Origin: Kiritimatiellia bacterium
Lineage (GTDB): Bacteria; Verrucomicrobiota; Kiritimatiellia; RFP12; UBA1067
Reading direction: 5' to 3'
Assembly: GCA_045636065.1 (NCBI GenBank)
Contig: JAZTWW010000036.1
Coordinates: 5,404 to 69,403 of the forward strand
DNA: 64,000 bases
This document shows positions 20,345 through 34,596 of the stretch, piece by piece. A program made the translations under genes and the position numbers. The notes below the pieces were generated by a model that was given only the letters and a program-made list of their open reading frames with translations, did not search any database and had not been told where the DNA came from. The stretch's first letter is position 1, and each line of letters opens with the position of its first letter.

Positions 20345-21079
20345 TTACAGAATAGACACATACCCCAAGCCATCGTTGGAGTCTGCGGCACCTAGAACCA
20401 GATGATCCAGAAAGCCAATTTCCAAGGAACGCGCGAGGCGTCTAAGCGTTTTCGTCAATGCCACGTCCTTCTTGCTGGGCGTCGGATCGCCGCTCGGATG
20501 ATTGTGTGCGACATAGATGTAACTCGCACTCCAGCGGACAGCATCCCGGAAGACCTCCCGCGCATAGACACGTGACGAATCAACCGACCCGCGGAACAGG
20601 CAGATTGGCTCGCAAATCGGATGCTTCCGCGCGTTCAGCGGTAGCACCCAGAAGCATTCCTGTTCTTCCTGCTCAAGTGCCGCGGTCCGGAACAGGCGAT
20701 AGGCCTCCCGTGCCGATGTCACCTTCATCAGACGAACCTCTTCCGGCTCCGGCCGTGCCGCCCGATACCCCAGCTCAAACGCCGCGGCAAGTTCCAAGCA
20801 CTTCACATGCCCAAGGCCCAGGATCGGTTTCTCCTTGTGCTCGGCATTGTACTTCTCGATCCGTGCCTCGATTGTCCGCCAATCCGAAGTGACAAGCCGC
20901 TGGATGGACCCAAATGCCGCGATCAGCCGACGGGACAGTTCCATTACATCACATCCAGCCGAACCCGTGCGCAGCAGAATTGCCAATATCGCCTCCGACG
21001 GGACCGAATGCGGACTGGCCGCACGCTCCATCTGCTCGCGCGGCTTCAGTTCCCCAGACTTCTTCTTGAAATTATTCAT
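20345..21079 (-). CDS. radC: RadC-family JAB/MPN domain protein
   Basis: JAMM motif HNHPSGDPTPSKKD and an N-terminal HhH-like segment (LGLGHVKCLELAAAF). Start overlaps the hsdR stop. Confidence 0.85.
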   Translation of the reverse strand: MNNFKKKSGELKPREQMERAASPHSVPSEAILAILLRTGSAGCDVMELSRRLIAAFGSIQRLVTSDWRTIEARIEKYNAEHKEKPILGLGHVKCLELAAAFELGYRAARPEPEEVRLMKVTSAREAYRLFRTAALEQEEQECFWVLPLNARKHPICEPICLFRGSVDSSRVYAREVFRDAVRWSASYIYVAHNHPSGDPTPSKKDVALTKTLRRLARSLEIGFLDHLVLGAADSNDGLGYVSIL

Positions 21080-24000
21080 TACGCTGCAGTATCCGGCAAT
21101 GCATAGAAATAGTTGTAAACTTCTTCAAGCAACTCGTCCTGCACCTTCGGCGAAGCCAACGCATCCGGCAAATCGGCATACAGGACATTCACAATCTCCG
21201 TCCGCACATCCGCACAAGTCGATGCCTTATCCCGCCAGTTCTCGACCGTAGACACCAAGGCCCGAAGCCGCGCAAGCAGCTCTTTAGCCACGCCCTTGAC
21301 CCTCTTCAAATCTGCCTGGGACAATTTCTCCTTCGACCTCAGGATGTCAAAGACCGCCAGCTGCTGGTTATCGTCCAGCTCCTCGCGGATATACCGCGCC
21401 TGTTCCTCGGTCACATCCTTCATGAGCTTTAGCAACTCCTGCAGGGCCTTTTCAATCGCCGCCTTGTCGTGTGCCTTATTGTACTCCTCGATAATCTCCT
21501 GCAAGGCCTGATAGTAGTTCTGGCAATGGGGGTTCTGCACGACCATGGACGAAATGACGTCCTCCGCCTTCTCGGACAGCTGCTTCAGAAGGAGCTTCTT
21601 GTACTTGTAACCCTCAATTGACTTCGCCATCCGCGAGAAGTCCAGCTTGCTCAGATCAAGCGCCACCTCATCGCACTTCTCGGCAACTGACGGCAAGGCG
21701 TTCTTCACATGGTCGCCGATGGTCTGCTGCAACTCCGCGAACAACGCCGTCAGGTCGGTCTTCTCCGCCTCACGGTGGTGCTCAATGTGCGAACGAATCT
21801 CACGAATGGCGTCCCGCTTGGCGCGGATCGTATCGCTGAGCTCGTCCGAATCAATGAACTTGGCGATGTCGTCCATCTTATTCGCCACGGCAATGAACGC
21901 CCGCGCGACATTATCCGGCGACGCCACCGCGTCTGCCGCGGTCTTCAGCATCTGCGGACGCGCCATCACATCCGCATCCAGCAACGCTTTGAGCCGGAAG
22001 CCATTGTCGGACAGCAATTTCACGTCCGCCGCAATCGCCTCTTCGTAATGCTTCAAGAGTTCTTCGATCGGCGGTAGCGGATTCTTCGGCTCTCCACCCT
22101 CGCCACCGATAACGCCGGTGAAGTCGGCGAGCGCACGGCCCAACGCATCGATGAGCCCGATGTAATCGACAATCACGCCATTGCGCTTGCCCTCGAACAC
22201 CCGATTCGCCCGCGCAATTGCCTGCATGAGCGTGTGCGCCTTGAGCGGCTTGTCGAGATAGAGCGTTCCCAGACACGGCACATCAAAGCCCGTCAGCCAC
22301 ATCGCGCACACAAAGGCGACGCGGAACGGATTCTGCGCCTTCTTGAAGTCCTTCTCCAGCTCCTTGCCCGCGATGTCCCGCTTGTAGGGCTTGATGTCGA
22401 TGCCGAATTTCTTGAAATACTCGACATCCCCCTGCTCCTGACTGATGACGAGCTCCATCCGCGTCTCTTTCATCCACGCGACACGCTCCTCCAGCTCTTG
22501 CTGGCGTTCGGCCGTCCGCCGCGCCTTCTTAACGGGATCCTTCGCCGACTCGTCCAGTTCCTCGGTGTACTTCTCCCACTCCGCGATAACGGCCTTCCAC
22601 GTGCGATACGCCGCGACCTTGTTGACGCTCACGAACATGGCCTTGCCGCTCCGCCACCGCGCAGAGTAGTCCCGCACGAAGTCCTTCGCCTTGATCGCGA
22701 TGGTCTCCGGCGCCATGTAAATCATGATCTTGGACTTGATGGCGTCATCCACCCGCTTGCGGTCCTGCGGATCGAGGTCCTCCTGCTCCACCGCCTCGAT
22801 GAGCTCCTGGTTGATGGACGGCGAATCGATGCCAAGCTTGTTGACCCGCGTCTTGTAGAAGAGCGGCACGGTTGCATGGTCCTCGACCGCGCGGTTGAAG
22901 TCGTAGACGGACACATACTGCCCGAACTGCTTCTCCGTCAAGTCACCGCGCTGAAGCGGCGTTCCCGTGAACCCGATGCGCGAGGCATCCGGCAGGAACC
23001 TGAGCATGTTGTCCGCGAAGATGCCGTTGTTGGTGCGGTGCGCCTCATCGGAGAAGATGACGATCTCATGGTCAGGATGAATCGGCGTCCATGTCGAGGA
23101 ATTGAACTTGTGGATCAGCGTGAACAGGAAACGGTCGTTCCCCTCCAGCCGTTTCCGCAGCCGCTCGCCGGACGACGGCATGCACGATTTCGGAAGCGCA
23201 TCGCCGAGGCATCCGCAGCTCGCGAACGTCCCGGCAATCTGCTCGTTCAGCTCGTCGCGGTCCGTCACGATCAAGAAGGACGGCGAACCGCCCGACTTGC
23301 GCAGGATCTTTCGCGCAAGGAACACCATCGAATAGCTCTTGCCCGACCCCTGCGTGTGCCAGAAGACGCCGATCTTCCCGTTCTTCTCCTGCCGCTTCAG
23401 ATAACTCCGATAGGCATTATTCACCCCGAGATACTGGTGGTTGCGGGCGAACACCTTGAACATGTTCCCGTCGTTCGAATCGAAGAGGATGAAGTTCTCC
23501 ACCAGATCGAGGAAGTTCGCCCGCGGGCACACCCCTTCGATAAGCTTCTTCAGCGACACGACCGCCTTGTCATCCTCGGCATGGCGCTTCCACTCCCCGA
23601 AGAACTCCCAGTCACTCCCGAGCGCCCCGATGTGCGTCTCGTTGCCGTTTGAGAAGACCAGCATCGCGTTGAAGCGGAACAGCTCGGGAATCGCGGCAAG
23701 ATAGTCCTTGTAGTTCTTGTCGTATCCTTCCTTGTCCTTGTGGGACGGCTTCTTGAACTCCATGAAGAGAAGCGGCAGTCCGTTCACGAAACCGATCAGG
23801 TCGGGACGCTTCACGAATCCCGGCGCGGTCACCCACAGCTCGCGTACGCACAGGAACTCGTTGTTCGGTCCCGTCGGATCGTCGAAGTCGATCAGCTTCG
23901 CCCGCCGCTCCGCCTCGCCGTCCTCTCCGAATTCCTCATCCGTCACCTTCACGCCGTCCCGGACGAACTCATACGCCTCGGAGTTGAGCTGCATCAGCGA

Positions 24001-24258
24001 CTTTCCGTGCTCGACGGTCTTCAGTTTTTCAATCGCCTCTTCAACCTGCGCATCCGTTATCCAGTCTCCGTTGATCCGCTTGAGTGCCGCCCGCACCGAC
24101 CGCCACAGCACCGTCTCCGACTTGTCCGCCCGCCCGAGCATCCCGTTCGGTCCAAACGTCTCGGCATCATACGCCAACACGCTCGTCCACCCGACGGCCT
24201 CCATCATTTTCGCCGCGGGTTCCTGCACGATGTTTTGTTCGGAATAGGTCCAGCTCAT
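21079..24258 (-). CDS. hsdR: type I restriction enzyme, R (endonuclease/translocase) subunit
   Basis: 1,059 aa with the N-terminal nuclease region, SF2 helicase motifs (GSGKSYSMV Walker A, DEAH box [11 protein letters not shown]) and a C-terminal helical domain. Confidence 0.92.
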
Positions 24259-24262
24259 GTGC

Positions 24263-25468
24263 TCACACCTCGATTTCCCCGCTCATCAACTTCGGCAACA
24301 GCCGATCCCGCGCCTCGGTGAGCGTACGGATTTGGCTGCGCATCGTTTGAATCTGTAAAGTCATATTACCAAGAACAGTAAATAACTTACTATCAAAATC
24401 ACCCAATTGAATTTCGGAGTCAAGGAATTCGTCAAAGGCAAAATTATTGATGCCGTTTGCACCCGCGTTTTTAAACACCTTCATTTTCCCTGACGACTGC
24501 AAATACTTGATATGCCATGCCAAAACAATTGACATTTGATTGTCTATCGGGCGCATGAACTTACAAAAGCTTGCGCATATCACAACATCATCAAACCAAG
24601 ATAACATATCATCCGAGACAAGCAAACTTCTTCCAATGTTATCGATATTACCATTTGACAACTCAATGATTATATCCCCACTAATTAATCGTTTGGTCTC
24701 TATATCATGCTTAGAATGAACTCTCAAAGGAATAGAGCTCTTGTTACCATACGATAAATCGTCAATATCAGTTCCTCGAATAACGTAACCACATTCGGTA
24801 AACTTGCCAATACTATTTTCTTTACCCCATCCCCCATTGGCATAATGGCGCAAAATCTCCCAAATCCTCTTCTTCTCCCCCTTGCCATCCTTGAACCATT
24901 CGCGATAGAGGCGCATGGCGGCCTCTTCCAGAAGCGCGATCTGCTTGCGGCAATTCGCAATCGCCGAATCGTAGTCGGAGAGTATCGCGACAATTTGCGA
25001 CCTTACATTCTTCTCCGGCACAGGGATCTCTAAATTCCGCAATTGATCAAGTGATATGTATTGCTGACTTGACCCTCGAAAATTACCGCGCAGAGCACCC
25101 TGTCCCATTGGGCTCGTCAAATAATAATAAAGCCATTTCGCTTTTTCCTCATCCCCGGACATTTTAAACAATGCAATATTCTTAATGGCATAATCGGGAT
25201 CATCCTTAACAATGGCACATTCCCCAACCGTGCCAATCATCGTCATCAGAATATCCCAGCGATCAACTTTGCTTCTCTCGTTGATCTTCCTATAATCTTT
25301 TTCTGAAATCAAATAAGCATCTTCAACCCGAACAACACCCTGCTTCACAACCTTTGATGTCACTAGCGGCTTTCCTCCACCCTCTACAGATTTGGGGCTA
25401 TCGTGCGTTCCATCGCGAACAGAAGCACAAAATTCAGCCGCCTTTTGCAAAACCCACTTGCTCATCAC
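24263..25468 (-). CDS. hsdS: type I R-M specificity subunit
   Basis: Two target-recognition domains separated by a conserved central repeat. Very AT-rich DNA relative to its surroundings. Sits between the regulator and hsdR with 4-nt spacing or overlaps. Confidence 0.85.
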
Positions 25469-27222
25469 CGCGCCTCCCCGACGAGATGGTAGCCACCAGT
25501 CTTCTTGCTGCCGCGGTGCTCGACCTTTCCGGCCGCGATCAATGCGGCAAGGGCTCGCTCAACAGTGGCCTTGCTCTTGCCAACGCGCAAGACAATCTCC
25601 GGCTTGTTAATTCCCGGTCGCGATTTTATCGCCTCATTTATCGCCTCATTTATCGCCTCAGGGGATTTTATCGCCTCACCCTTTTGGCCAGTTTTTCGAT
25701 AAGGCATCTGCTTGTCGTTACGCGACTGTATGATCTTGGCCTCTCGCAAGGTCGACAAAGCATTGTTGATGGTACGCAAGGCCATCCCCGTCCTCGCGCA
25801 AATCTGCGGAATTGTCACGCTTTTATCGGCAATAAGCTCGTGAAGCACGGTCTCAACATTCGCACGTGCATCCTTGCGAAGCTTTGGAAGACGAGCGAGC
25901 AGTTCCCCGATGTTATCCGCAGCTGTAGTGCCAATTATCGTCCAACCTGTGCCAGATAATCCGTGACCAGTGCCAGTTCTGTCCGAAGCAGTGCCAGTTC
26001 TTGCGGCAACAATGCCATTTCTTTGATCGGGCGTATTGACGCCTGTCCAATCTGGGCGCTTGAAAATGGTGGTGACACAACCGTATTCTTCTTTGACCTT
26101 TGGTACGGGCAACCCCACCCTGACACATTCATTGGCAATCCGAGTAAGCCCGCGTCCCCATGTCTCGATGGATTTGCGCAGATACAGGACGCGCGCGATT
26201 TTCTCATTCCGCGGTTCCGAATGTTGGATTGGCGGTGAATACAATCTGGCGAGGTTGAAATCTGACGGGAACTTCCCGGGGTTCTTGATTTCAACCCGGT
26301 CATCGTAGATGGCGAGGTAAATCGTTTGGCTGCGGTTTTCGTAGCTGCGATGGGCAAAGGCGTTCACCAACGCTTCGCGGAGTGCGTCCGCAGGAATCTC
26401 CAGCTCTTCGTCTCGTTCGATCTTGCCGCTCGTCCATGCCGCCAGATTCAAATGCTTGAAGCAGAAAGCCATCGCAGCGTCTATCATCTTGAAGACATTG
26501 CCCTGCACATGGGAATTGTCGAGGAACACCCGCTGATCAGTTCCCTTGAACCATCCCATCTTAATTTCGAGTTGCGGATAATCGATGCGATCCGCCTTCC
26601 CGAAAAGCACGGCGGCACCATTCAACAGAGTTCCATTCTTCCTCAGCTTGAAATGGTCGAGCAACGAGGCGGCGTTTTCGGTATCGACACTTTCATCAAG
26701 CCGCCCGACCCGCACCGCCTTTCGCGCCGTATCTCGAATGACATCCAAATCAAGATCGTCGAGCGACAGTTCCGGATTCGGCTGATCTTCCCATTCGCTC
26801 CTGAATCCACCCCTCGCAAGGAGCATCCGCTCGTACTCCTCCTGGCTCATTACAGTCGTTGAGGACTGCACACGCTTGTGCGGCTTTCCATCGTAGATAT
26901 AGGGCTTGCGGTTCCCGCCATCGACATGACACACGATGGCCGTATGCGTGTCGTCAATAGGAACATACGAAACCTCAATATCCGCCGCAGGCTCGAACTT
27001 CTGAAATGCCTCGAAAAGATCGCGCTTTGTCGTATCGGCAATCAGCTGTCCTGTCAGTCGGCCCTTGCGTGTCACGCCGAAAACAACCGTGCCTCCATCC
27101 TTGTTTAGAAACGCGCACAAAGTCTCGCAGGCGTCAACGCGCTGTCCGGTCGTTTCCTTGAATTCGACCGTCTCGCCTTCGCCCTGGGCAAGCAGAATTT
27201 GCAGTTCATCTAATGTCTTCAC
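25465..27222 (-). CDS. AlbA_2 (Schlafen-like) + HATPase_c_4 + C-terminal wHTH putative transcriptional regulator
   Basis: N-terminal ...LQILLAQGEGETVEFKETTGQ... signature of the AAA-4/AlbA_2 family. C-terminus has a GT-rich linker, an AINEAINEAIK repeat and two wHTH-like segments. Overlaps hsdM (ATGA) and hsdS (ATGA). Confidence 0.8.
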   Translation of the reverse strand: MKTLDELQILLAQGEGETVEFKETTGQRVDACETLCAFLNKDGGTVVFGVTRKGRLTGQLIADTTKRDLFEAFQKFEPAADIEVSYVPIDDTHTAIVCHVDGGNRKPYIYDGKPHKRVQSSTTVMSQEEYERMLLARGGFRSEWEDQPNPELSLDDLDLDVIRDTARKAVRVGRLDESVDTENAASLLDHFKLRKNGTLLNGAAVLFGKADRIDYPQLEIKMGWFKGTDQRVFLDNSHVQGNVFKMIDAAMAFCFKHLNLAAWTSGKIERDEELEIPADALREALVNAFAHRSYENRSQTIYLAIYDDRVEIKNPGKFPSDFNLARLYSPPIQHSEPRNEKIARVLYLRKSIETWGRGLTRIANECVRVGLPVPKVKEEYGCVTTIFKRPDWTGVNTPDQRNGIVAARTGTASDRTGTGHGLSGTGWTIIGTTAADNIGELLARLPKLRKDARANVETVLHELIADKSVTIPQICARTGMALRTINNALSTLREAKIIQSRNDKQMPYRKTGQKGEAIKSPEAINEAINEAIKSRPGINKPEIVLRVGKSKATVERALAALIAAGKVEHRGSKKTGGYHLVGEAR

Positions 27223-29021
27223 AACCCCAGCCCCTTCAAGTTCTTGTCGATGGACTTCATAAGCGCGGCAGATTCGTCTTGCAGTTTCAACAGCTCGGCG
27301 TGAATCTCCTTCATGCGCGACTTGAAATCAACCGTGTCCTTTGGCGGCGGCGGAACGCCCACGTAACTGCCGGGGTTGAGCGACCACTTCTTTGCTTCGA
27401 TGTCGGCAACCGCGGCAGATTTGCAAAGCCCGGGGGTGTCCTCGTAGGTTCCCTTTTCGCCGAACTTGGACACAAGCCAATCTCGCTCTGCGGCAAGTTC
27501 GTCGCGCTCTTTGCGGACGGCCTCGGCTTGCTCGGCTTTACGAAGAAGGTCTTTCTTCTCGTTCCGCCAACCCTTCTCCTTCGCCGCCTCGACCTTCTCT
27601 ACCTCAGCGCGGAACTTCGCCGGATCGCCTGCCGCCTTCACCTGCAAATCAAGCGCGGAAAGCGCCGCCTTGTAATCCTCCAGCAGCTTCGCGTACTTCT
27701 CCTTCTCGCCGCGCCAGAGCCAGCGGATCGCCGAGATATTCCGAATCTGCCACGGCGTCCACTCGTTGTGCGTCGTGTCGATCACATGGAAGTAATTCCG
27801 CATGTCGAGGAAAAGCACCTCGTTCTTCCGCGTCGCCGGCTTCTGCTTGTCAAAGAACCAAAGCGTACACGGCAGCGACTTCGTGAAGAAGAAGTTGTTG
27901 CCGACGCTCAGCATTGAATCGACATGTCCCGACTTGACGAGCTTCGAGCGGATCAGCTGCTCGTTGCCGTCCGCATCGGGAGCGGATGCCGCCATCACGA
28001 ATCCCGCCTTGCCGGTCGCGTTCAGGTAGGAATAGAAATACTGGATCCAAAGGTAGTTGCCGTTGGAAACGATGTCGTCCTTGTTCACGCCTGGAGAGCC
28101 GAAGACAAGCCGTGGATCGTTCAGGACCGACTTGCCCTTCAATCCGTGACAGTTGAACGGCGGATTCGCCATCACGTAGTTGCATTTGCCGCGCAGATGA
28201 TGGGCGTCATTGAAGAACGTGTTCGCGCCCTCTCCGTAGGCGATCTTCGACGGATCGAACCCGTGCACGGCCATGTTCATCAGACAGATCTTGCCGTTCG
28301 TATCCGTCTTTTCCTGTCCGAAGAACGTCAACAGCTGGTTCGCGTTCCCGCCCGACTCCGAAACGAAGTCGCCGGACGAAATGAACATGCCGCCCGATCC
28401 GCAAGCTGGATCCAGCACGATGCCCTTCTTCGGTTCCAGGAAGCTCACGATCAGCCGTACGATCGGTTTCGGCGTGAAGAACACGCCATCATCACTCGCC
28501 ACCTGCGGTGCAAAGCATCCGAGGAAGTATTCGTAGATACGCCCGAACGCGTCATCGCCCAACTTGGAAATCTTCTCGTCCGCGAAGTTCCGCAAGAGCC
28601 CACGCAGCAAGTCCGGCGTCAGCTGATTGTAGGTCTTGGGAAGAACGCCCTTCAACACCGGCATCGCATCCTCAATCGCCTTCATCGCATCATTGACCGC
28701 CTTGCAGATATCGGCATTCTCAGGGAGCCCCGTCAGATAGTCGTACCGCGCATTCTCCGGTACGAACATGGCGGACTCCTTGATGAAGTCATCCGCCCGC
28801 ACCGGCCGCGGCACTCCATTCCGACACGGCCAGTTCTTCGACTCCTTAAGCTTCTTCTCAATCAGCCGGAACCGAAACGTCGCATGCCGCAGAAATATGA
28901 TGCCCAGTACCGGCATGTAATACATCTGCGATGTGAGCGACGACTCATTTCTCAGCGAGTCCGCCGTCTCCCACAGGCTCTTCTCCAACTCATCCAACGA
29001 TGTCTGCTGTTCAGTTGTCAT
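27219..29021 (-). CDS. hsdM: type I R-M N6-adenine DNA methyltransferase subunit
   Basis: HsdM N-domain, motif I VLDPACGSGGMF, motif IV MANPPFN. Confidence 0.92.
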   Translation of the reverse strand: MTTEQQTSLDELEKSLWETADSLRNESSLTSQMYYMPVLGIIFLRHATFRFRLIEKKLKESKNWPCRNGVPRPVRADDFIKESAMFVPENARYDYLTGLPENADICKAVNDAMKAIEDAMPVLKGVLPKTYNQLTPDLLRGLLRNFADEKISKLGDDAFGRIYEYFLGCFAPQVASDDGVFFTPKPIVRLIVSFLEPKKGIVLDPACGSGGMFISSGDFVSESGGNANQLLTFFGQEKTDTNGKICLMNMAVHGFDPSKIAYGEGANTFFNDAHHLRGKCNYVMANPPFNCHGLKGKSVLNDPRLVFGSPGVNKDDIVSNGNYLWIQYFYSYLNATGKAGFVMAASAPDADGNEQLIRSKLVKSGHVDSMLSVGNNFFFTKSLPCTLWFFDKQKPATRKNEVLFLDMRNYFHVIDTTHNEWTPWQIRNISAIRWLWRGEKEKYAKLLEDYKAALSALDLQVKAAGDPAKFRAEVEKVEAAKEKGWRNEKKDLLRKAEQAEAVRKERDELAAERDWLVSKFGEKGTYEDTPGLCKSAAVADIEAKKWSLNPGSYVGVPPPPKDTVDFKSRMKEIHAELLKLQDESAALMKSIDKNLKGLGL

Positions 29022-29043: not shown

Positions 29044-30702
29044 TCAACTCCAATCTCTTGGATTTATGCCATTGGCAGCAGCCGTCTTCTTGAACATTAT
29101 TTTCAACCCCGCTGTAAATCTCGCGACCGCCTGCTGATTTGATGAATCCGCGACCCAAAACCTCATCAACTCAATAAAAAAAGGTTCATACCTGCTCCAA
29201 ATCGCTTTTGTTTCAGCTCGGCGAACTCCTTCTGTACTCCTTCCCGATGCATGCAAATCACTTATCTTCCGTTCCATGGCCTCCCAATCGCTCTCAATCC
29301 TACTGAAATATGTCCGACTATAACCATTATTAGTAGCTGCAGGGGAATGCCAAAAAGTGTCTGCGCCACCATGACACAACCTCTTGCCATACTCGAATAG
29401 AAATTGCTCTGGAGATTTGTTATCACCAGGCAATACTATAAGATTGTTTGTAACATCCTGTTTTTTATCGCCATCCAAAACCGCAAAGGCAGTGGATTTC
29501 ACGGACAAGCACCCGTCTTTAAAAATCGTCTCAAGATTAGTTGCCCCAATGAAAGATCCGACGAAATGGAAATGTGTTCGCAAGTGCTCTATCCCTGATC
29601 CCCGACAGAAGATATGATCCAGCAAAACACCCAAAACGACCCTTGCCTCATCATCCTCTGCAAGCACCGGGATCTTCCGTCCCTCATACAAATCCCTGCG
29701 GGTACAATTCTTCAGATGCATCCTGATTTTAAACATATCAGGATCCGGCAATACACTTATATGATCAAGGTCGTCGATGAAGTATATAACATTGTCGCCC
29801 TTCGTCAGCACATCTTCTAGCAACGCAAGGCTATGCGTTGTACAAATGACTTGAATCTTATAGTCTGTTGCATATTTTCGCAGCAACTCGCACAGTTCAA
29901 TCTGCAAAGACGGATGAAGAGTAGCATCAAGCTCATCAATCAACAAAACGCTTTCTGTAAAACCTGTTTTAGTCGACAACTTCTCATAGTAATATCGCAG
30001 CGACACTAATGCACGCAAAATACATAATACATTATCCTCTCCCGATGAAATCGTGTTCGAATCTACACCCTGCACCGTTGTCTCAAATTCTTCACAGCAC
30101 TTCAATGATGCAACATTACTTACCACATGCTTTGCGCCCATCTCTATTCGGGTCAACCGCTTATATAGGTCCGCCAGCTCATTGTTATATTCCACAGGCA
30201 ACTGTTTTCCAACGCGTCTGGTTGCAACATCATCCGCCAGCTCTCCTCGCGGAAGCAATCGAGGCAAGCCCAAATAGATCACTGGCATCTCAGGCAACTT
30301 CTCATGGGTTCCTGGCGCATAATTTGGTTTTACCGCAAAGCGAAAATTCTGATCTGACCTGTGTCGTCTAAAATTCAAAGCCAACCCATTCTCGTAGTTG
30401 ATTGTAAACAACGTGCCCACAATACCACGCGCTGGGTCACGATATTTTTTATCGCCCCGAACCAACGATTCAATTTTGCAATTCATCCCAGCATTGATAC
30501 GGGCAATGATGCTGACACACGCGCCGTCAAGCATTCGAGGATTCGCCGACTGCTTAGCTCGCTTGTACGCATTACTAATCATATGTAAAACAGAACTTTT
30601 ACAAGTTCCGTTTGTGCCTGATATAATATTCACGCCCGGACAAAAGTCCAAATCCAAGCCCTTCAGCTTGCGATATTGCACAATTGACAATTTCGAAATC
30701 AT
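29044..30702 (-). CDS. OLD/GajA-like ABC-type ATPase with C-terminal TOPRIM-like region (solo, no helicase partner)
   Basis: Walker A GTNGTCKSS, ABC-signature-like SGEDNV, Walker B/D-loop LLIDELDATLHP, H-loop ICTTHS. The C-terminal ~200 aa has an acidic Glu motif (IPVLAEDDEARVV) and a DxD motif (AFAVLDGDKK) spaced as in TOPRIM. 552 aa matches class 1 OLD/GajA length. Confidence 0.6.
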   Translation of the reverse strand: MISKLSIVQYRKLKGLDLDFCPGVNIISGTNGTCKSSVLHMISNAYKRAKQSANPRMLDGACVSIIARINAGMNCKIESLVRGDKKYRDPARGIVGTLFTINYENGLALNFRRHRSDQNFRFAVKPNYAPGTHEKLPEMPVIYLGLPRLLPRGELADDVATRRVGKQLPVEYNNELADLYKRLTRIEMGAKHVVSNVASLKCCEEFETTVQGVDSNTISSGEDNVLCILRALVSLRYYYEKLSTKTGFTESVLLIDELDATLHPSLQIELCELLRKYATDYKIQVICTTHSLALLEDVLTKGDNVIYFIDDLDHISVLPDPDMFKIRMHLKNCTRRDLYEGRKIPVLAEDDEARVVLGVLLDHIFCRGSGIEHLRTHFHFVGSFIGATNLETIFKDGCLSVKSTAFAVLDGDKKQDVTNNLIVLPGDNKSPEQFLFEYGKRLCHGGADTFWHSPAATNNGYSRTYFSRIESDWEAMERKISDLHASGRSTEGVRRAETKAIWSRYEPFFIELMRFWVADSSNQQAVARFTAGLKIMFKKTAAANGINPRDWS

Positions 30703-30720
30703 TTCAACCTCGCTTCCTCA

Positions 30721-31590
30721 TCAGATGAAAAGTCTATCCATCCCAACACGACGAACTTCGGACATTGTAGGAATCAACTCTTTTCGCCCGAAAAACATCA
30801 CTTCTTTCCCGTTCCCATTGTTTGCCAAACTATAGTTGAGCGTAAACTTTCTGCTGGGAAGTCCCTTGTAAATCTTGCATATCTGCGGCACGTCATCATA
30901 CGAAACGATCCAAGGGCACGTAACATCTGACTTGATCTTGGCACACAAAGCCTGATGTTTCTTCTCATCAAAGAAATTCTGATACAAGTCTTTCCCCTTA
31001 CGGTAATACGGGGGGTCAAAATAGACAAAAGCGTTTGCCTCAAACTGTTTAAGCTGCCTGGAAATAAAGCTCTCCACGTCTCTGTTGAACACATGGATTT
31101 GCTTTCTCTTTCGTCCGATCGCTTCTATCTTTTTTGATAAGTCATTCTTCGGATAACGCACATCAAGTTTCCACGCGCCCTGCTCCATTCCCCCAATCGG
31201 TCCCGAAGATAAAATACCCGAATGATTTGTGCGATTCAAAAAGAAAGTCGCAAAGCCATATTCCAATGCGTATTTCTTCCCCGTCAGGTAAATCTCTCGT
31301 TGCTTCTTCCATTCATCAAGTGTGACGGGGGTACTATGAAGCATATCAATAAATGCATCATTCTCTTGTACAACAGCCTTCCAGAACGAATAAATTGCGG
31401 GATCCGAATCGTTGATCACAATTTCAGAGACAACATCACGCAAAAGCAAATCTATCGCTATTCCAGCACCTCCAGCGAACGGCTCAACATACACAGAACA
31501 ATTATCACCGGACTTGTTTACCAACAACTCAATGAGTTTGCTGATTTTATATTTTCCACCGGGATATCGTAGTGGTGACGGATTACCCAT
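30721..31590 (-). CDS. D12-class (Dam-like) N6-adenine DNA methyltransferase
   Basis: YPGGK (Dam K-WAGGK equivalent), motif I EPFAGGAGI, FFLNRTNHSG (Dam NRTxFNG region), motif IV VYFDPPYY. Confidence 0.85.
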   Translation of the reverse strand: MGNPSPLRYPGGKYKISKLIELLVNKSGDNCSVYVEPFAGGAGIAIDLLLRDVVSEIVINDSDPAIYSFWKAVVQENDAFIDMLHSTPVTLDEWKKQREIYLTGKKYALEYGFATFFLNRTNHSGILSSGPIGGMEQGAWKLDVRYPKNDLSKKIEAIGRKRKQIHVFNRDVESFISRQLKQFEANAFVYFDPPYYRKGKDLYQNFFDEKKHQALCAKIKSDVTCPWIVSYDDVPQICKIYKGLPSRKFTLNYSLANNGNGKEVMFFGRKELIPTMSEVRRVGMDRLFI

Positions 31591-32878
31591 TGCTCGCTCC
31601 CCTTTCTCTCTTGCAGTGAAGTCTTAACAGCCCGCCAACAATCAAAGACATCGCAATCGTTTGCGCAAGATTATAACTCCCCGTGTAATTATGTGCGCCC
31701 GTCTGCAACAACCCAACGATGTTGCTTTTAGTGACGGCATTTTGCGCCAAGAAAGTTTTTTGGTCCTGCGAAAGCGATGCCTTGGCATCATCAAAGCCAT
31801 TCATCACCAATGCACTCATGTCGCGAGAGGACGAACACTTTGCAATCAACTCGCACTCCAAGCGCAATGCCATACGGATAAGTGCAGGGAATCGATCCGA
31901 TAAATTGTCTTTATGCTTTTCATAGTAATTATACAAGTCCAGAATATCGCGATACAAATTTGCCGGCTCACCAACATCCAAATCTAATTTTCCGCCGAAG
32001 AGAGCCATTGACGAAGAGCCAACCCTCCTAGGCAATCGTGCAGCCTGTTGTGCATCCGTGGAGGAAACATTTAAACATTGAAAATCATCTGACTTCAAAT
32101 CAACGTCATGATATTCTTTATCTGCGTCAGCATCAACAATGGCCTTCAACTTTGGATCAATCAAAACGCAAAGCGGCTCTTTGCGCCCATTTCGCGTACT
32201 AATCCTCTTGTCTTTTACCAGAGAAAAAATGTGCTCTAACAGCCTCTGCGTATCCTTGGCATTATGCCGAGACGAGACGCGTCCCTTTTCAATCTTTATG
32301 CCGATGCTTTTCATCCTCGGATTCGTCAGCACCTCTTCGCGCACAAATCGCTGATTTAGATAACTCGTCGCCTCAACCCTTCCATCCAACATTTCATTCA
32401 ATTGCAGCAACACACTCTTGGGTTGCTTCATGAATTTATACAGGAACACATCACGCGCTATCTGATCCCACGAGCCTGTATCCGCATGTTTACGCCAAAC
32501 ACTCTCAATAGCAACATCCTCAGATGCCACACAACAAGGCAAAACCTCAGGGCAATCTGGCATCTTGAATTTCAAGTCACAAAACTCAGGATACAACCCC
32601 AACTTAAGCATCGCAAGGATTACACGCCTATTCCCATCATAAACGATTGGCGCACCATTCTTGTAAACAACCGTGGGCAATTCGCTGAAATCATAACGTG
32701 CCCCCATCTTCTTCGCGAGTTTCTTGATCTCCCACTTCTTACCCGCATCAACAAGCGCATGCCGGATGACAGTCTCATTTTTACTCCTTGACGAAATGGG
32801 GTCACGTGGATTCTCCGTCCAAAGAACCAAATCCCTGACAGGGATTTTCTCTACAGTCTGTTTTTCTTGATTATCCAT
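31583..32878 (-). CDS. ParB/Srx-fold (ParBc-like) N-terminal domain protein with ~320-aa unknown C-terminal region
   Basis: IPVRDLVLWTENPRDPI...VYDGNRRVILAMLKLG matches ParB (P..NPR...iaGeRRlrAa). The start codon overlaps the Dam gene end by 8 nt. Start set at an ATG (the track start is a TTG 4 codons upstream). Confidence 0.6.
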   Translation of the reverse strand: MDNQEKQTVEKIPVRDLVLWTENPRDPISSRSKNETVIRHALVDAGKKWEIKKLAKKMGARYDFSELPTVVYKNGAPIVYDGNRRVILAMLKLGLYPEFCDLKFKMPDCPEVLPCCVASEDVAIESVWRKHADTGSWDQIARDVFLYKFMKQPKSVLLQLNEMLDGRVEATSYLNQRFVREEVLTNPRMKSIGIKIEKGRVSSRHNAKDTQRLLEHIFSLVKDKRISTRNGRKEPLCVLIDPKLKAIVDADADKEYHDVDLKSDDFQCLNVSSTDAQQAARLPRRVGSSSMALFGGKLDLDVGEPANLYRDILDLYNYYEKHKDNLSDRFPALIRMALRLECELIAKCSSSRDMSALVMNGFDDAKASLSQDQKTFLAQNAVTKSNIVGLLQTGAHNYTGSYNLAQTIAMSLIVGGLLRLHCKRERGASNG

Positions 32879-32905
32879 ACAGTGATCCAATTATGGTGTT
32901 TATAA

Positions 32906-33475
32906 TTATAACATTTTAATGGTGGGGAGCACGAGATGATGGGCAATCTTCGCGCGAGCGAGGAACATCAAATCGACAATCCCGACGAATCGCGCTTTGA
33001 CATATTCCTGCCAGGTCTTGCCTTTGGGAAATTTTATGTTGCCCTTGCCACAGGTCGATTCCCAGCCGAACTCTGTTCCGGGATCAAACTTGACGACTTC
33101 AGCGCTGAACGGACTAGAATCAGGCTTCTTCCTCCCGAACCAAGCGACATCAACAAGGTTGTTCTGCTTGTTGCAAATCCATGACGGAGTAAAGACCTCT
33201 GAACGTTTCACCACGCGCTGACGCTGCTCCTCGGCGCTCTTGTCGACACGCGGACGGATCACGGGATTGTCCTTGTCGACAATCTGCTCTATCCGAATCT
33301 CGTCACCGGCACCGAATCCCTTGCCGCGCTCAGCATAGTCATCCGTCGCCCAAATAAGGTTTCGCCACGTCGATCGGTCTTTCAAGAGTACGGCAAGCAC
33401 TTCTTCTGGAATGTTCCATTCCAGAATGTCGCGGCCAAAGCCGCTTGTCCCCTTTGTGTTTTGCTTAATCATCAT
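32906..33475 (-). CDS. hypothetical protein (possible degenerate gamma-class MTase N-terminal fragment)
   Basis: SEVFTPSWICNKQNNLVD resembles MTase motif X (GxVyTPxxiVxxMv). KFDPGTEFGW is at most a degenerate motif I. No other motifs were found. Confidence 0.4.
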   Translation of the reverse strand: MMIKQNTKGTSGFGRDILEWNIPEEVLAVLLKDRSTWRNLIWATDDYAERGKGFGAGDEIRIEQIVDKDNPVIRPRVDKSAEEQRQRVVKRSEVFTPSWICNKQNNLVDVAWFGRKKPDSSPFSAEVVKFDPGTEFGWESTCGKGNIKFPKGKTWQEYVKARFVGIVDLMFLARAKIAHHLVLPTIKML

Positions 33476-33483
33476 TTCTAGGT

Positions 33484-33496
33484 TAATATTATACCA
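33484..33496 (-). promoter_or_regulatory. putative extended -10 (TGGTATAAT) overlapping the ORF6N stop, upstream of the 32906-33475 gene
   Basis: Minus strand caggaaTGGTATAATatt. The -10 is at plus 33488-33493, only about 12 nt before the ATG (near-leaderless). Confidence 0.35.
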
Positions 33497-34448
33497 TTCC
33501 TGTCGTTTTTACGCCCACCACAAACACTGACTTCTTGATGCGGCGAATATCGGCGGAATCTAGCTTCGTGAAGGCGAAGCACTTCTTGCCGAGGTCTTTC
33601 AGCGATGCGCCTATCAGGTAGAGTTCCTTGTCATCGACGATGAGAAAGCGGTCATGGAACGATTCATTGTAGCGAACGGAGAGCTCCGGGTATTGGGCGT
33701 TGAAGGTCTTGATATCGGCATCGGAAATCTTGCGGTGCGGCATGTGCTTCTTGTCGTAATGCTCCGACGTGAAGACCGTCACCTTCACGCCCTTGCGCTT
33801 CTTCGCGAAGAGGTCGAGCACCTCCGTCGTCGCCCAGTTGTCGATGAGCATCAGCGAACTCTTCGCTCCAGCGACCAGCTTCAGCACCAACGCCCGCGCA
33901 TCCCACAGCTGCCCGTCGTAAAACACGCCCTGAATAGGCGTTTCAGTCGCGTCAATGCGCTGCAGGATGGAATCTACTTTCGCATCCGTGGCAATCTGCC
34001 GCTTCTCCACCGCCTCGATTCGCTGAAACATCTGCGCGTTCGCAAGCAAGAACCGACGCATCGCAGAGAAGGCCCGCATAATGCGGATGTTCACTTCGAT
34101 GGCCGTAGGCGAACGGAGGACGCTGCTCAACATGGCAATACCATTTTCCGTAAAAGCGTATGGGAGCTGACGATCACCGCCCCAACTTGAGATGCCATTT
34201 TGGCATTTCAAGTTATCCCATTCTTCGGCGGACAGTCTGAACATGAAGTCCTCCGGGAATCGCTCTTCGTTGCGCTTGACCTGCCTGTTCAACGCCCCGG
34301 TCGCCACGCCATACAACCTTGCCACATCGCGATCAAGTATGACCTGCACTCCTCGAATAGGCTTGATCAACGCCTGAATGTTGCCCGTATCACTCACGAC
34401 AACAGCCTGTACTTGCTGACCGGAAATGGCATTCCCATTCTGCCTCAT
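33489..34448 (-). CDS. ORF6N (KilA-N-like) domain protein with unknown C-terminal domain
   Basis: IRGVQVILDRDVARLYGVATGALNRQVKRNEERFPEDFMFRLSAEEWDNL is a typical ORF6N/Rha-like N-domain. Start set at the ATG 34448 (AAAGGAGG RBS 5 nt upstream). Confidence 0.65.
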   Translation of the reverse strand: MRQNGNAISGQQVQAVVVSDTGNIQALIKPIRGVQVILDRDVARLYGVATGALNRQVKRNEERFPEDFMFRLSAEEWDNLKCQNGISSWGGDRQLPYAFTENGIAMLSSVLRSPTAIEVNIRIMRAFSAMRRFLLANAQMFQRIEAVEKRQIATDAKVDSILQRIDATETPIQGVFYDGQLWDARALVLKLVAGAKSSLMLIDNWATTEVLDLFAKKRKGVKVTVFTSEHYDKKHMPHRKISDADIKTFNAQYPELSVRYNESFHDRFLIVDDKELYLIGASLKDLGKKCFAFTKLDSADIRRIKKSVFVVGVKTTGMV

Positions 34449-34596
34449 GCCGCCTCCTTTACATCCGCAATCCGCTTGAGCAGCAGACAACTGGACTTAT
34501 CGCAATTTGCGACAAGTTCATACGTTTCAAGCCGCACGTCTGGCCGGACGGTCCCGTTCGGCTGGTCCACGGCAATCTGGGTTTCGCTTGCGCTCA
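34446..34596 (-). CDS. possible 49-aa upstream ORF translationally coupled (ATGA) to the ORF6N gene
   Basis: MSASETQIAVDQPNGTVRPDVRLETYELVANCDKSSCLLLKRIADVKEAA. Its stop overlaps the ORF6N start. A TTTGGTATAAT -10 lies 16 nt upstream of its ATG. Confidence 0.3.

What the first reader, a model, noticed from the sequence alone, without database searches (positions are those of the whole stretch)
29044..30702. Solo OLD/GajA/PARIS-like ABC-ATPase with TOPRIM-like tail sitting 22 nt upstream of hsdM
It has clear ABC ATPase motifs (Walker A GTNGTCKSS, signature SGEDN, D-loop LLIDELDATLHP, H-loop TTHS). The C-terminal region carries E...DxD spacing reminiscent of TOPRIM (IPVLAEDDEARV / AVLDGDKK). 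No helicase gene (GajB/UvrD) is adjacent, so it looks like a class-1 OLD nuclease or a fused AriA/AriB-like (PARIS) protein. PARIS senses anti-restriction proteins and is typically R-M-adjacent, which matches this context.
Basis: partly seen in the sequence, partly recalled or inferred. Interest (0 to 1): 0.55.

Follow-up and report, generated by a model that had tools for sequence, protein, structure and literature searches.

The report
OLD-like nuclease paired with adenine methylase
The gene encodes an ATP-driven nuclease of the OLD type, but it is not a lone gene beside hsdM: in nearly every genome and phage examined it is coupled to its own adenine DNA methylase, which suggests an undescribed restriction-modification-like phage defence module.

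The parts
29044..30702 (-). OLD-like ABC ATPase fused to a divergent TOPRIM plus helical domain, 552 aa (the finding)
   Evidence: ORF and translation. Pfam AAA_15 1e-15 and AAA_21 2e-12. phrog_3940 full-length match, 8.5e-95, 'unknown function'. Full-length hhalign to the P2 Old family: probability 95.5%, E 1.5e-8.
29698..30702 (-). ABC ATPase domain (residues 1-335): Walker A 30592-30618 (GTNGTCKSS), signature 30031-30048 (SSGEDN), Walker B/D-loop 29911-29949 (VLLIDELDATLHP), H-loop 29830-29841 (TTHS)
29362..29685 (-). TOPRIM-like nuclease core (residues about 340-447): E349-D350 at 29653-29658, D410-G-D412 at 29467-29475, P431-E432 at 29407-29412
29047..29361 (-). C-terminal helical domain (residues 448-552) with invariant K499 (29206-29208)
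   Evidence: Helices 454-551 in the AF2 model. K499 is invariant across the superfamily. Inference: it resembles the OLD helical domain that supplies a catalytic Lys (Bp OLD K562, PMC6755086). The equivalence of the two lysines was not tested.
30721..31590 (-). D12-class N6-adenine DNA methyltransferase, 289 aa, the conserved partner gene (FAGGAG 31462-31479, DPPY 31006-31017)
   Evidence: Pfam MethyltransfD12 1e-21. PADLOC PD-Lambda-5_B 7.7e-106. 18 nt gap to the ATPase start. Orthologues are adjacent to the ATPase in almost all loci. Motifs.
31583..32890 (-). ParB/DUF262-like accessory gene (435 aa ORF; probable real start at ATG 32878, 431 aa; ENPRD motif 32801-32815), distantly PD-Lambda-5_A-like
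   Evidence: PADLOC PD-Lambda-5_A matches the N-terminus only, 6e-9. It overlaps the methylase start by 8 nt. Homologous third genes occur in about 8 of 80 loci; these score up to 5e-30 against PD-Lambda-5_A and weakly against GmrSD_N. The gene is called as 431 aa in relatives.
29044..32890 (-). Low-GC three-gene cassette (43-46% GC) inserted at the 5' end of a type I R-M operon
   Evidence: GC steps from 57% to 45% at about 29000 and from 45% to 53% at about 32950. Metagenome contig L005 shares 93.5% nucleotide identity over the cassette plus hsdM.

Best explanation
The gene is the nuclease/ATPase subunit of a methylation-coupled defence module. The universal core of this module is two genes: an OLD-type ABC-ATPase-TOPRIM protein and a dedicated Dam-like (D12) N6-adenine methyltransferase. 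In this window a third gene, ParB/DUF262-like, is added, and the three genes arrived together as a low-GC cassette embedded at the head of a type I R-M operon.

Proposed mechanism, all steps inferred:
1. The methylase marks the host's own DNA at adenines.
2. The ATPase-TOPRIM protein oligomerises through its ABC head, as OLD and GajA do.
3. ATP binding or hydrolysis (K35, D256-E257, H290) gates a metal-dependent TOPRIM site (E349/D350, D410/D412, probably E432 and K499).
4. That site nicks or degrades DNA that lacks the mark.
5. In the three-gene form, the ParB/DUF262-like protein may add sensing of unmodified or foreign DNA, as proposed for Menshen NsnA and as PD-lambda-5_A presumably does with the same methylase family.

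Shown here: the domain identities, the catalytic-motif correspondence, the near-obligate gene pairing, the mobility of the module and the cassette boundaries. Not shown: any enzymatic activity, methylation sensitivity or the target nucleic acid.
For: Pairing:
- The D12 methylase is adjacent (<=150 nt) in 66 of 80 species-level loci, one gene away in 5 and 3.7-3.8 kb away in 3. The other 6 are cut by contig ends.
- It is adjacent in 31 of 32 IMG/VR viral loci.
- It is also adjacent to 23-28%-identical relatives in Vibrio phage ValB1MD-2, Citrobacter phiNP, Streptococcus Javan645, C. butyricum and Nicoliella, and to the 39%-identical B. toyonensis plasmid homologue.
- Gene order and orientation vary (downstream, upstream, convergent, divergent), as is typical of R-M pairs.
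- Decay is asymmetric: the ATPase is disrupted next to an intact methylase in L052, L085 and L086, and the reverse is never seen.
- ATPase and methylase divergence are correlated (r = 0.58; 0 of 2000 permutations reach it).

Nuclease:
- Full-length hhalign to the P2 Old family runs through the TOPRIM. E349 aligns with E398 (posterior 0.8) and D410/D412 with D453/D455 (0.6). Shuffled controls stop at 299-364.
- These residues are invariant across the superfamily.

Mobility and defence context:
- The cassette is 44% GC.
- The family occurs at prophage moron positions beside integrase or cI, inside a split pglX of a BREX operon, and in this window inside a defence island bounded by housekeeping genes.
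- The methylase belongs to the PD-lambda-5_B family, whose system was experimentally protective (PMC9519451).
Against: - No member of this family has been tested.
- Nothing shows that the nuclease is blocked by adenine methylation, or that it cuts DNA rather than RNA. The PARIS TOPRIM AriB cleaves tRNA (as stated in PMC12839542).
- No DNA-recognition module has been identified in the ATPase.
- The TOPRIM call fails with Pfam models, with an isolated C-terminus versus C-terminus hhalign (E 0.33) and with Foldseek (best E 0.38).
- The distance correlation vanishes among distant pairs (r = 0.09), so it shows co-inheritance, not co-adaptation.
- PD-lambda-5, which shares this methylase family, protects best against T-even phages. 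The authors called it 'RM+Abi', so a pure restriction mechanism may be too simple.
- The disrupted-ATPase cases are few, and one is in a MAG.
Confidence: 0.55

Rival explanations
1. PARIS-like or OLD-like abortive-infection sensor. The ATPase detects a phage trigger, such as an anti-restriction DNA mimic like Ocr or a RecBCD inhibitor. It then releases the fused TOPRIM against host tRNA or DNA and kills or arrests the cell. The nearby R-M genes are what it guards.
For: The ATPase is of the OLD/AriA/PtuA clade. AriB is the top specific structural neighbour of the C-terminal domain. In the window the gene sits in a type I R-M operon, and in L009 inside a BREX operon. Single-gene ATPase-TOPRIM defence embedded in other systems exists (HEC-04, bioRxiv 2024.01.29.577857). 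PD-lambda-5 was described as 'RM+Abi'.
Against: The conserved neighbour is its own methylase, not an R-M system to be guarded; hsdM/R/S are present in 5 of 80 loci. A pure sensor-effector would not need an obligate methylase. AriA/AriAB profiles match only 50-60 residues of ATPase motifs. There is no DUF4435 Pfam hit. A hybrid, in which the ATPase guards its own methylase, is not excluded.
Confidence: 0.2
2. Menshen-like or PD-lambda-5-like three-component system specific to this window. The ParB/DUF262 protein is the sensor, the ABC ATPase is the transducer, and its fused TOPRIM is the effector. The methylase only supplies self-marking. On this reading the ATPase depends on the 435 aa protein.
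For: The three genes form one low-GC cassette with overlapping or near-abutting ORFs. A PADLOC NsnB profile covers the whole ATPase domain (residues 1-297, 1e-14). The third gene is PD-Lambda-5_A-like with a ParB/GmrSD_N-like N-terminus. Menshen has exactly this logic and is sometimes linked to methylases (PMC12065111).
Against: Only about 8 of 80 loci and 0 of 32 viral loci carry the ParB-like gene. The ATPase-methylase pair therefore functions without it in most hosts. No NsnA or NsnC model matches. The 435 aa protein matches PD-Lambda-5_A only over its first ~90 residues.
Confidence: 0.15
3. A selfish addiction or epigenetic module, or a housekeeping RecF/SbcC-like repair ATPase, with no role in phage defence.
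For: R-M-like pairs can act as post-segregational killers. The family lies on prophages and plasmids. There are weak RecF/Rad50 N-terminal matches.
Against: The distribution is patchy and horizontally transferred, the gene sits in a low-GC island, and it occupies defence-island and moron positions. RecF/Rad50 matches are limited to the first ~45 residues and fall far below the curated cut-offs. The best matches are defence ATPases. Addiction and defence are not mutually exclusive.
Confidence: 0.08

Closest known systems
OLD family nucleases (P2 Old, Thermus scotoductus OLD; class 1)
   Same: N-terminal OLD-type ABC ATPase ('G.N..[GC]K[ST]', '..DE.....LHP', 'THS') followed by a TOPRIM and then a helical domain. 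The catalytic Glu and DxD align with P2 Old E398 and D453/D455. Size is similar (552 vs 586 aa). Both are carried by prophages.
PD-lambda-5 (Vassallo et al. 2022, PMC9519451)
   Same: The window's methylase is a strong member of the PD-Lambda-5_B family (7.7e-106). The gene upstream of it is distantly PD-Lambda-5_A-like. Both are compact, mobile, methylase-plus-effector modules.
   Different: PD-lambda-5 is a two-gene A+B system with no ATPase-TOPRIM protein. Here the A-like gene matches only at its N-terminus (6e-9) and is absent from about 90% of loci that carry the ATPase.
Gabija GajA
   Same: ABC ATPase fused to a TOPRIM. GajA is a sequence-specific, nucleotide-gated DNA nicking enzyme (PMC8136825, abstract), a plausible functional model.
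   Different: No GajB/UvrD-like helicase gene lies nearby. GajA profiles match only ATPase segments.
PARIS (AriA/AriB, fused AriAB)
   Different: AriA and AriAB profiles cover only ATPase motifs. There is no DUF4435 hit. Foldseek to AriB is not significant (E 0.38). PARIS has no methylase partner.
HEC-04 and retron type I-B ATPase-TOPRIM effectors
   Same: Single polypeptide with an ABC ATPase and a TOPRIM. HEC-04 is embedded in other defence systems and needs Walker A and the E/DxD residues. The retron I-B profile aligns with residues 218-416, into the TOPRIM.
   Different: There is no reverse transcriptase or ncRNA here. HEC-04 acts alone, without a methylase. Sequence similarity is at the level of shared domains only.
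Menshen (NsnABC)
   Same: The logic of a ParB-DUF262 protein, an OLD-ABC ATPase and a nuclease effector, sometimes next to methylases (PMC12065111). An NsnB profile covers the whole ATPase domain.
   Different: NsnB carries DUF3696 rather than a TOPRIM. The effector is a separate NsnC. No NsnA or NsnC match was found, and the ParB-like gene is optional in this family.

Membership tests
OLD family nuclease | N-terminal ABC ATPase with Walker A/B, signature, D-loop and H-loop of the OLD/AAA_15 type | tested here: met
   Pfam AAA_15 58 bits (cut-off 32.1) and AAA_21 48 bits (cut-off 27). The motifs align with P2 Old at posterior 0.9.
OLD family nuclease | C-terminal TOPRIM with catalytic Glu and DxD | tested here: inconclusive
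OLD family nuclease, class 1 | Standalone gene with no conserved partner | tested here: not met
   A D12 methyltransferase is adjacent or one gene away in 71 of 74 assessable genome loci and adjacent in 31 of 32 viral loci.
Gabija (class 2 OLD) | Adjacent UvrD/PcrA-like helicase GajB | tested here: not met
   The neighbours are a D12 methylase and HsdM. None of the ORFs scanned between 20345 and 34490 is a separate helicase gene.
Retron type I-B effector (class 3 OLD) | Adjacent reverse transcriptase and msr/msd ncRNA | tested here: not met
   None of the ORFs scanned between 20345 and 34490 has an RT domain. The ncRNA was not searched for.
PARIS (class 4 OLD) | AriA ATPase plus an AriB DUF4435 TOPRIM (split or fused) matching the system's profiles over their length | tested here: not met
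   AriA PDLC02979 matches only profile positions 310-371 of 373. AriAB PDLC02981 matches only residues 249-308. No DUF4435 hit.
PARIS (class 4 OLD) | Activation by anti-restriction proteins (Ocr) and tRNA cleavage | not testable with these tools
   This needs co-expression and RNA analysis.
PD-lambda-5 | PD-Lambda-5_B methyltransferase | tested here: met
   PDLC04018 at 7.7e-106, covering residues 3-280 against profile positions 4-282 of 291.
PD-lambda-5 | PD-Lambda-5_A partner protein matching over its length | tested here: inconclusive
   The 435 aa protein matches 8 PD-Lambda-5_A profiles but only over residues ~9-104 (best 6e-9). Homologous third genes elsewhere score up to 5e-30.
Type II-like restriction-modification system | Methyltransferase and nuclease genes tightly and consistently linked, in variable orientation | tested here: met
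Type II-like restriction-modification system | The nuclease cuts a defined unmethylated site and is blocked by the cognate methylation | not testable with these tools
   This needs methylome data (SMRT or ONT) for the methylase motif and in vitro cleavage assays.
Menshen (NsnABC) | NsnA (ParB-DUF262 plus DNA-binding), NsnB (ABC ATPase plus DUF3696) and a separate NsnC effector | tested here: not met
   Only the NsnB ATPase region matches (1e-14). There is no DUF3696 and no NsnA or NsnC hit.

The most novel reading that the evidence does not exclude
This is a previously unrecognised type of restriction-modification system. The restriction subunit is an ATP-gated OLD-family TOPRIM nuclease that discriminates self from non-self through a dedicated Dam-like adenine methylase, in effect a methylase-linked 'sixth class' of OLD proteins. 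The module is portable enough to be embedded inside type I R-M and BREX operons and prophage moron slots. It can also recruit a ParB/DUF262 sensor, which links it evolutionarily to PD-lambda-5 and Menshen.
Probability: 0.4. Interest if true: 0.7.

Novelty: new variant of a known kind. Interest (0 to 1): 0.6.

Why it matters
OLD-type ATPase-TOPRIM proteins are known as standalone genes (P2 Old), helicase-linked (Gabija), retron-linked, split (PARIS) or archaeal cell-cycle enzymes. How they tell self from foreign nucleic acid is still debated.

A clade that is almost obligately tied to its own adenine methylase offers a simple, testable answer for one branch: methylation marks self. It would add an ATP-dependent TOPRIM enzyme to the short list of restriction-nuclease folds.

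The family is sizeable. It comprises 384 clusters at 50% identity and is present in Bacillota, Pseudomonadota, Spirochaetota, Bacteroidota, Deferribacterota, an archaeal MAG and temperate phages. PHROGs annotates it only as 'unknown function', and no PADLOC 2.0 model covers its full length.

It also illustrates defence genes embedded inside other defence operons, and a methylase family (PD-lambda-5_B) that partners with alternative effectors.

Tried and rejected
- Pfam scan of the isolated C-terminal 211-223 residues, of 20 family members and of 6 distant relatives found no TOPRIM/DUF4435 hit.
- A profile of the C-terminal domain against PDB sequences returned only chance globin hits.
- hhalign of A1 and A2 against the single P2 Old sequence aligned only the D-loop/H-loop.
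- hhalign against a 3-sequence OLD mini-profile was low-confidence in the TOPRIM region.
- hhalign of the isolated C-terminal profile against the Old C-terminal profile gave nothing.
- Foldseek of the C-terminal model against PDB put AriB top, but not significantly.
- A homologue search with the P2 Old C-terminus alone returned only 4 hits.
- One PADLOC call was wasted by an unusable E-value setting.
- Exact-sequence contig look-up for the window protein found nothing on record, so the organism was not identified.
- The promoter/terminator scan was within the chance expectation.
- No tRNA genes and no flanking repeats mark the cassette.
- WonAB was checked and rejected; it has a PD-(D/E)xK partner and no methylase.
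- Krishnan et al. 2020 (ABC ATPase classification, PMC7544218) could not be read. An earlier in-silico mention of methylase-linked OLD-ABC systems cannot be excluded.

Full report
**1. The observation**

The ORF exists exactly at 29044-30702, but on the minus strand (552 aa). It has an ATG start preceded by GAGG. Its stop codon is 22 nt upstream of a gene that is clearly hsdM (N6_Mtase 9e-70, HsdM_N; PADLOC MTase_I 7e-228).

The minus-strand array reads, 5' to 3':
- ORF6N-PLD (33489-34490)
- a 189 aa type II methylase fragment (32906-33475)
- a 435 aa ORF (31583-32890)
- a D12 methyltransferase (30721-31590)
- the target
- hsdM (27219-29021)
- a Schlafen/AlbA_2-HATPase_c_4-wHTH gene (25465-27222)
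- hsdS (24263-25468)
- hsdR (21079-24258)
- RadC (20345-21079)

Housekeeping genes lie on both sides. Gaps and overlaps between these genes are 1-22 nt. No tRNA gene was found, and no convincing internal promoter or terminator.

**2. What the protein is**

Pfam gives AAA_15 and AAA_21 above their cut-offs. PADLOC, NCBIfam and PDB sequence searches give PtuA, retron ATPases, AriA, GajA, NsnB and OLD. All of these matches cover only ATPase segments. The exceptions are an NsnB profile that covers the whole ATPase domain and a retron I-B 'ATPase-Toprim' profile that aligns with residues 218-416.

PHROGs has a full-length family, phrog_3940, labelled 'unknown function' (8.5e-95). Homologues of about 550 aa at 35-46% identity over the full length are numerous.

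**3. The TOPRIM question**

This is the crux of the finding, and the answers were mixed.

Negative results:
- No Pfam hit in the isolated tail, in 20 members or in 6 distant relatives.
- Nothing from a tail profile against PDB sequences.
- Nothing from tail-only hhalign against an Old tail profile.
- Foldseek ranks AriB first, but at E 0.38.

Positive results:
- A separate AF2 model of residues 330-552 is confident (pLDDT 90.7). It has the beta1-alpha-beta2-alpha-beta3-beta4 order followed by a five-helix domain.
- I built a 194-sequence family profile and a 115-sequence P2 Old family profile. PF20469 is on record for nearly all of the listed Old homologues. The local hhalign alignment (probability 95.5%, E 1.5e-8) runs from the Walker A through the linker to residue 413.
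- In that alignment E349 falls on Old E398 (posterior 0.8) and D410/D412 fall on Old D453/D455 (0.6).
- When the family's C-terminal columns are shuffled, the alignment stops at 299-307 in 7 of 8 trials and at 364 in one. It never reaches the DxD.
- E349, D350, D410, D412, P425 and K499 are invariant in an alignment that includes 23-25%-identical relatives.

The layout is a TOPRIM followed by a helical domain carrying an invariant lysine. This parallels the OLD C-terminal region, where E400, D455, D457 and K562 are catalytic (PMC6755086). I conclude the tail is a divergent OLD-type TOPRIM (about 0.8).

**4. The partner**

The first four genomic contexts I opened each had a MethyltransfD12 gene next to the ATPase. 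They were Sporomusa, Desulfosporosinus, an alphaproteobacterial MAG and gut-metagenome relatives of the window.

I then fetched 80 loci, one per species, and scored all ORFs with an HMM of those methylases:

| Position of the methylase | Loci |
|---|---|
| Within 150 nt, downstream, co-directional | 54 |
| Within 150 nt, upstream, co-directional | 7 |
| Within 150 nt, convergent | 4 |
| Within 150 nt, divergent | 1 |
| One gene away | 5 |
| 3.7-3.8 kb away (a Rhizobiaceae four-gene variant with a HerA-like protein) | 3 |
| Not assessable (contig ends at the ATPase) | 6 |

In IMG/VR, 31 of 32 viral loci have the methylase adjacent, and the remaining locus is cut by its contig end. More remote relatives are also each flanked by a 'DNA adenine methylase'. 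They are 23-28% identical and occur in Vibrio phage ValB1MD-2, Citrobacter phiNP, Streptococcus Javan645, C. butyricum and Nicoliella. They are often at the integrase or repressor end of a prophage. The 39%-identical Bacillus toyonensis plasmid homologue is flanked in the same way.

By contrast, hsdM, hsdR or hsdS homologues occur within 6 kb in only 5 of 80 loci. Three loci have a frameshifted or truncated ATPase beside an intact methylase. No locus shows the reverse.

**5. The window's cassette**

GC content falls from 57% in hsdM to 43-46% exactly at the ATPase stop. It rises again to 52-55% just beyond the start of the 435 aa ORF. The host flanks are 60-65% GC. The three genes at 29044-32890 are therefore one imported unit. 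The ATPase is not part of the type I operon by descent.

A gut-metagenome contig, L005, is 93.5% identical across the cassette plus hsdM. It differs in the hsdS region, so the arrangement is stable among close relatives.

The methylase is intact (FAGGAG, DPPY) and is a strong PD-Lambda-5_B match (7.7e-106). The 435 aa protein has an ENPRD ParB-like motif and weak N-terminal PD-Lambda-5_A matches. Its homologues occur as a third gene in about 8 of 80 loci. Those homologues score up to 5e-30 on PD-Lambda-5_A and weakly on GmrSD_N/DUF262. A Pseudomonas phage has the same methylase family with a bona fide PD-Lambda-5_A and no ATPase. The methylase clade therefore partners with alternative effectors.

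**6. Mechanism**

The most economical reading is a methylation-coupled nuclease module. The methylase marks self DNA, and the ATP-gated TOPRIM attacks unmarked DNA.

The evidence for this is genomic:
- near-obligate linkage;
- R-M-like variability of gene orientation;
- asymmetric decay;
- co-inheritance (r = 0.58, Mantel 0 of 2000, although r = 0.09 among distant pairs);
- mobility of the module.

Nothing biochemical is known, and the target could be RNA. PD-lambda-5, which shares the methylase family, was broadly protective and strongest against T-even phages. Its authors described it as a compact 'RM+Abi' system (PMC9519451). An abortive or guard component therefore remains possible.

In the three-gene form, the architecture echoes Menshen, which combines a ParB-DUF262 sensor, an OLD-ABC transducer and a nuclease effector. 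Menshen is sometimes found next to methylases (PMC12065111).

**7. Comparison and novelty**

The protein works like an OLD/GajA-type enzyme and qualifies as an OLD-family relative in the broad sense. It fails the defining context of every described class:
- class 1, standalone;
- class 2, helicase-linked;
- class 3, retron-linked;
- class 4, split PARIS;
- class 5, archaeal Cran1.

It is also not recognised by the Pfam OLD-TOPRIM model. It is not WonAB, HEC-04 or PD-lambda-5 proper.

The C-terminal domain is confined to this architecture: 384 clusters at E<=1e-3, and in full-length hits it is always at the C-terminal end of 520-620 aa proteins.

I could not read Krishnan et al. 2020, which surveys ABC-ATPase conflict systems 'acting together with R-M systems'. 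An earlier computational mention therefore cannot be excluded. I rate the finding a new variant of a known kind, interest 0.6.

Noticed in passing
window 32906-33475 (-): A 189 aa ORF matches only the N-terminal 146 of 327 positions of a type II methyltransferase profile (PADLOC PDLC03390, 2e-35). It ends 16 nt before the low-GC cassette. It looks like a methylase remnant truncated when the cassette inserted.
   Followed up: partly
window 33489-34490 (-): An ORF6N domain fused to a PLD-like nuclease domain. It is a strong match to the untested PADLOC candidate PDC-S05 (8e-109) and is another likely defence gene at the edge of the island.
   Followed up: no
window 25465-27222 (-); L005 5955-7930: A Schlafen/AlbA_2 + HATPase_c_4 + double wHTH gene is embedded between hsdM and hsdS, with 4-nt overlaps on both sides. 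In a relative that is 93% identical over the cassette plus hsdM, the same slot holds a different hsdS plus a Fic gene. This is a swappable slot inside the type I operon.
   Followed up: partly
L009 6166-12524: In an alphaproteobacterial MAG the ATPase-methylase pair sits between the two halves of a split BREX pglX. The stop and start codons overlap at both junctions. The defence module is embedded inside another defence gene.
   Followed up: partly
window 30601-30603 (Cys34 codon): The Walker A reads GTNGTCKS. An invariant Cys in the close family replaces the near-universal Gly before the Lys. Distant relatives have G, S or Q at this position.
   Followed up: partly
L044 1174-7695 (also L050, L085): A Rhizobiaceae variant has a four-gene co-directional array: D12 methylase, HerA-like DUF87 protein (712 aa), an unknown 501 aa protein, then the ATPase-TOPRIM.
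   Followed up: partly
L052, L085, L086: The ATPase gene is truncated or frameshifted next to an intact methylase in three loci. No locus has an intact ATPase with a damaged methylase. This is the asymmetry expected if the methylase protects against the nuclease.
   Followed up: yes
window 20345-21079 (-): A RadC-like JAB gene overlaps the hsdR stop codon by 1 nt at the 3' end of the island.
   Followed up: no
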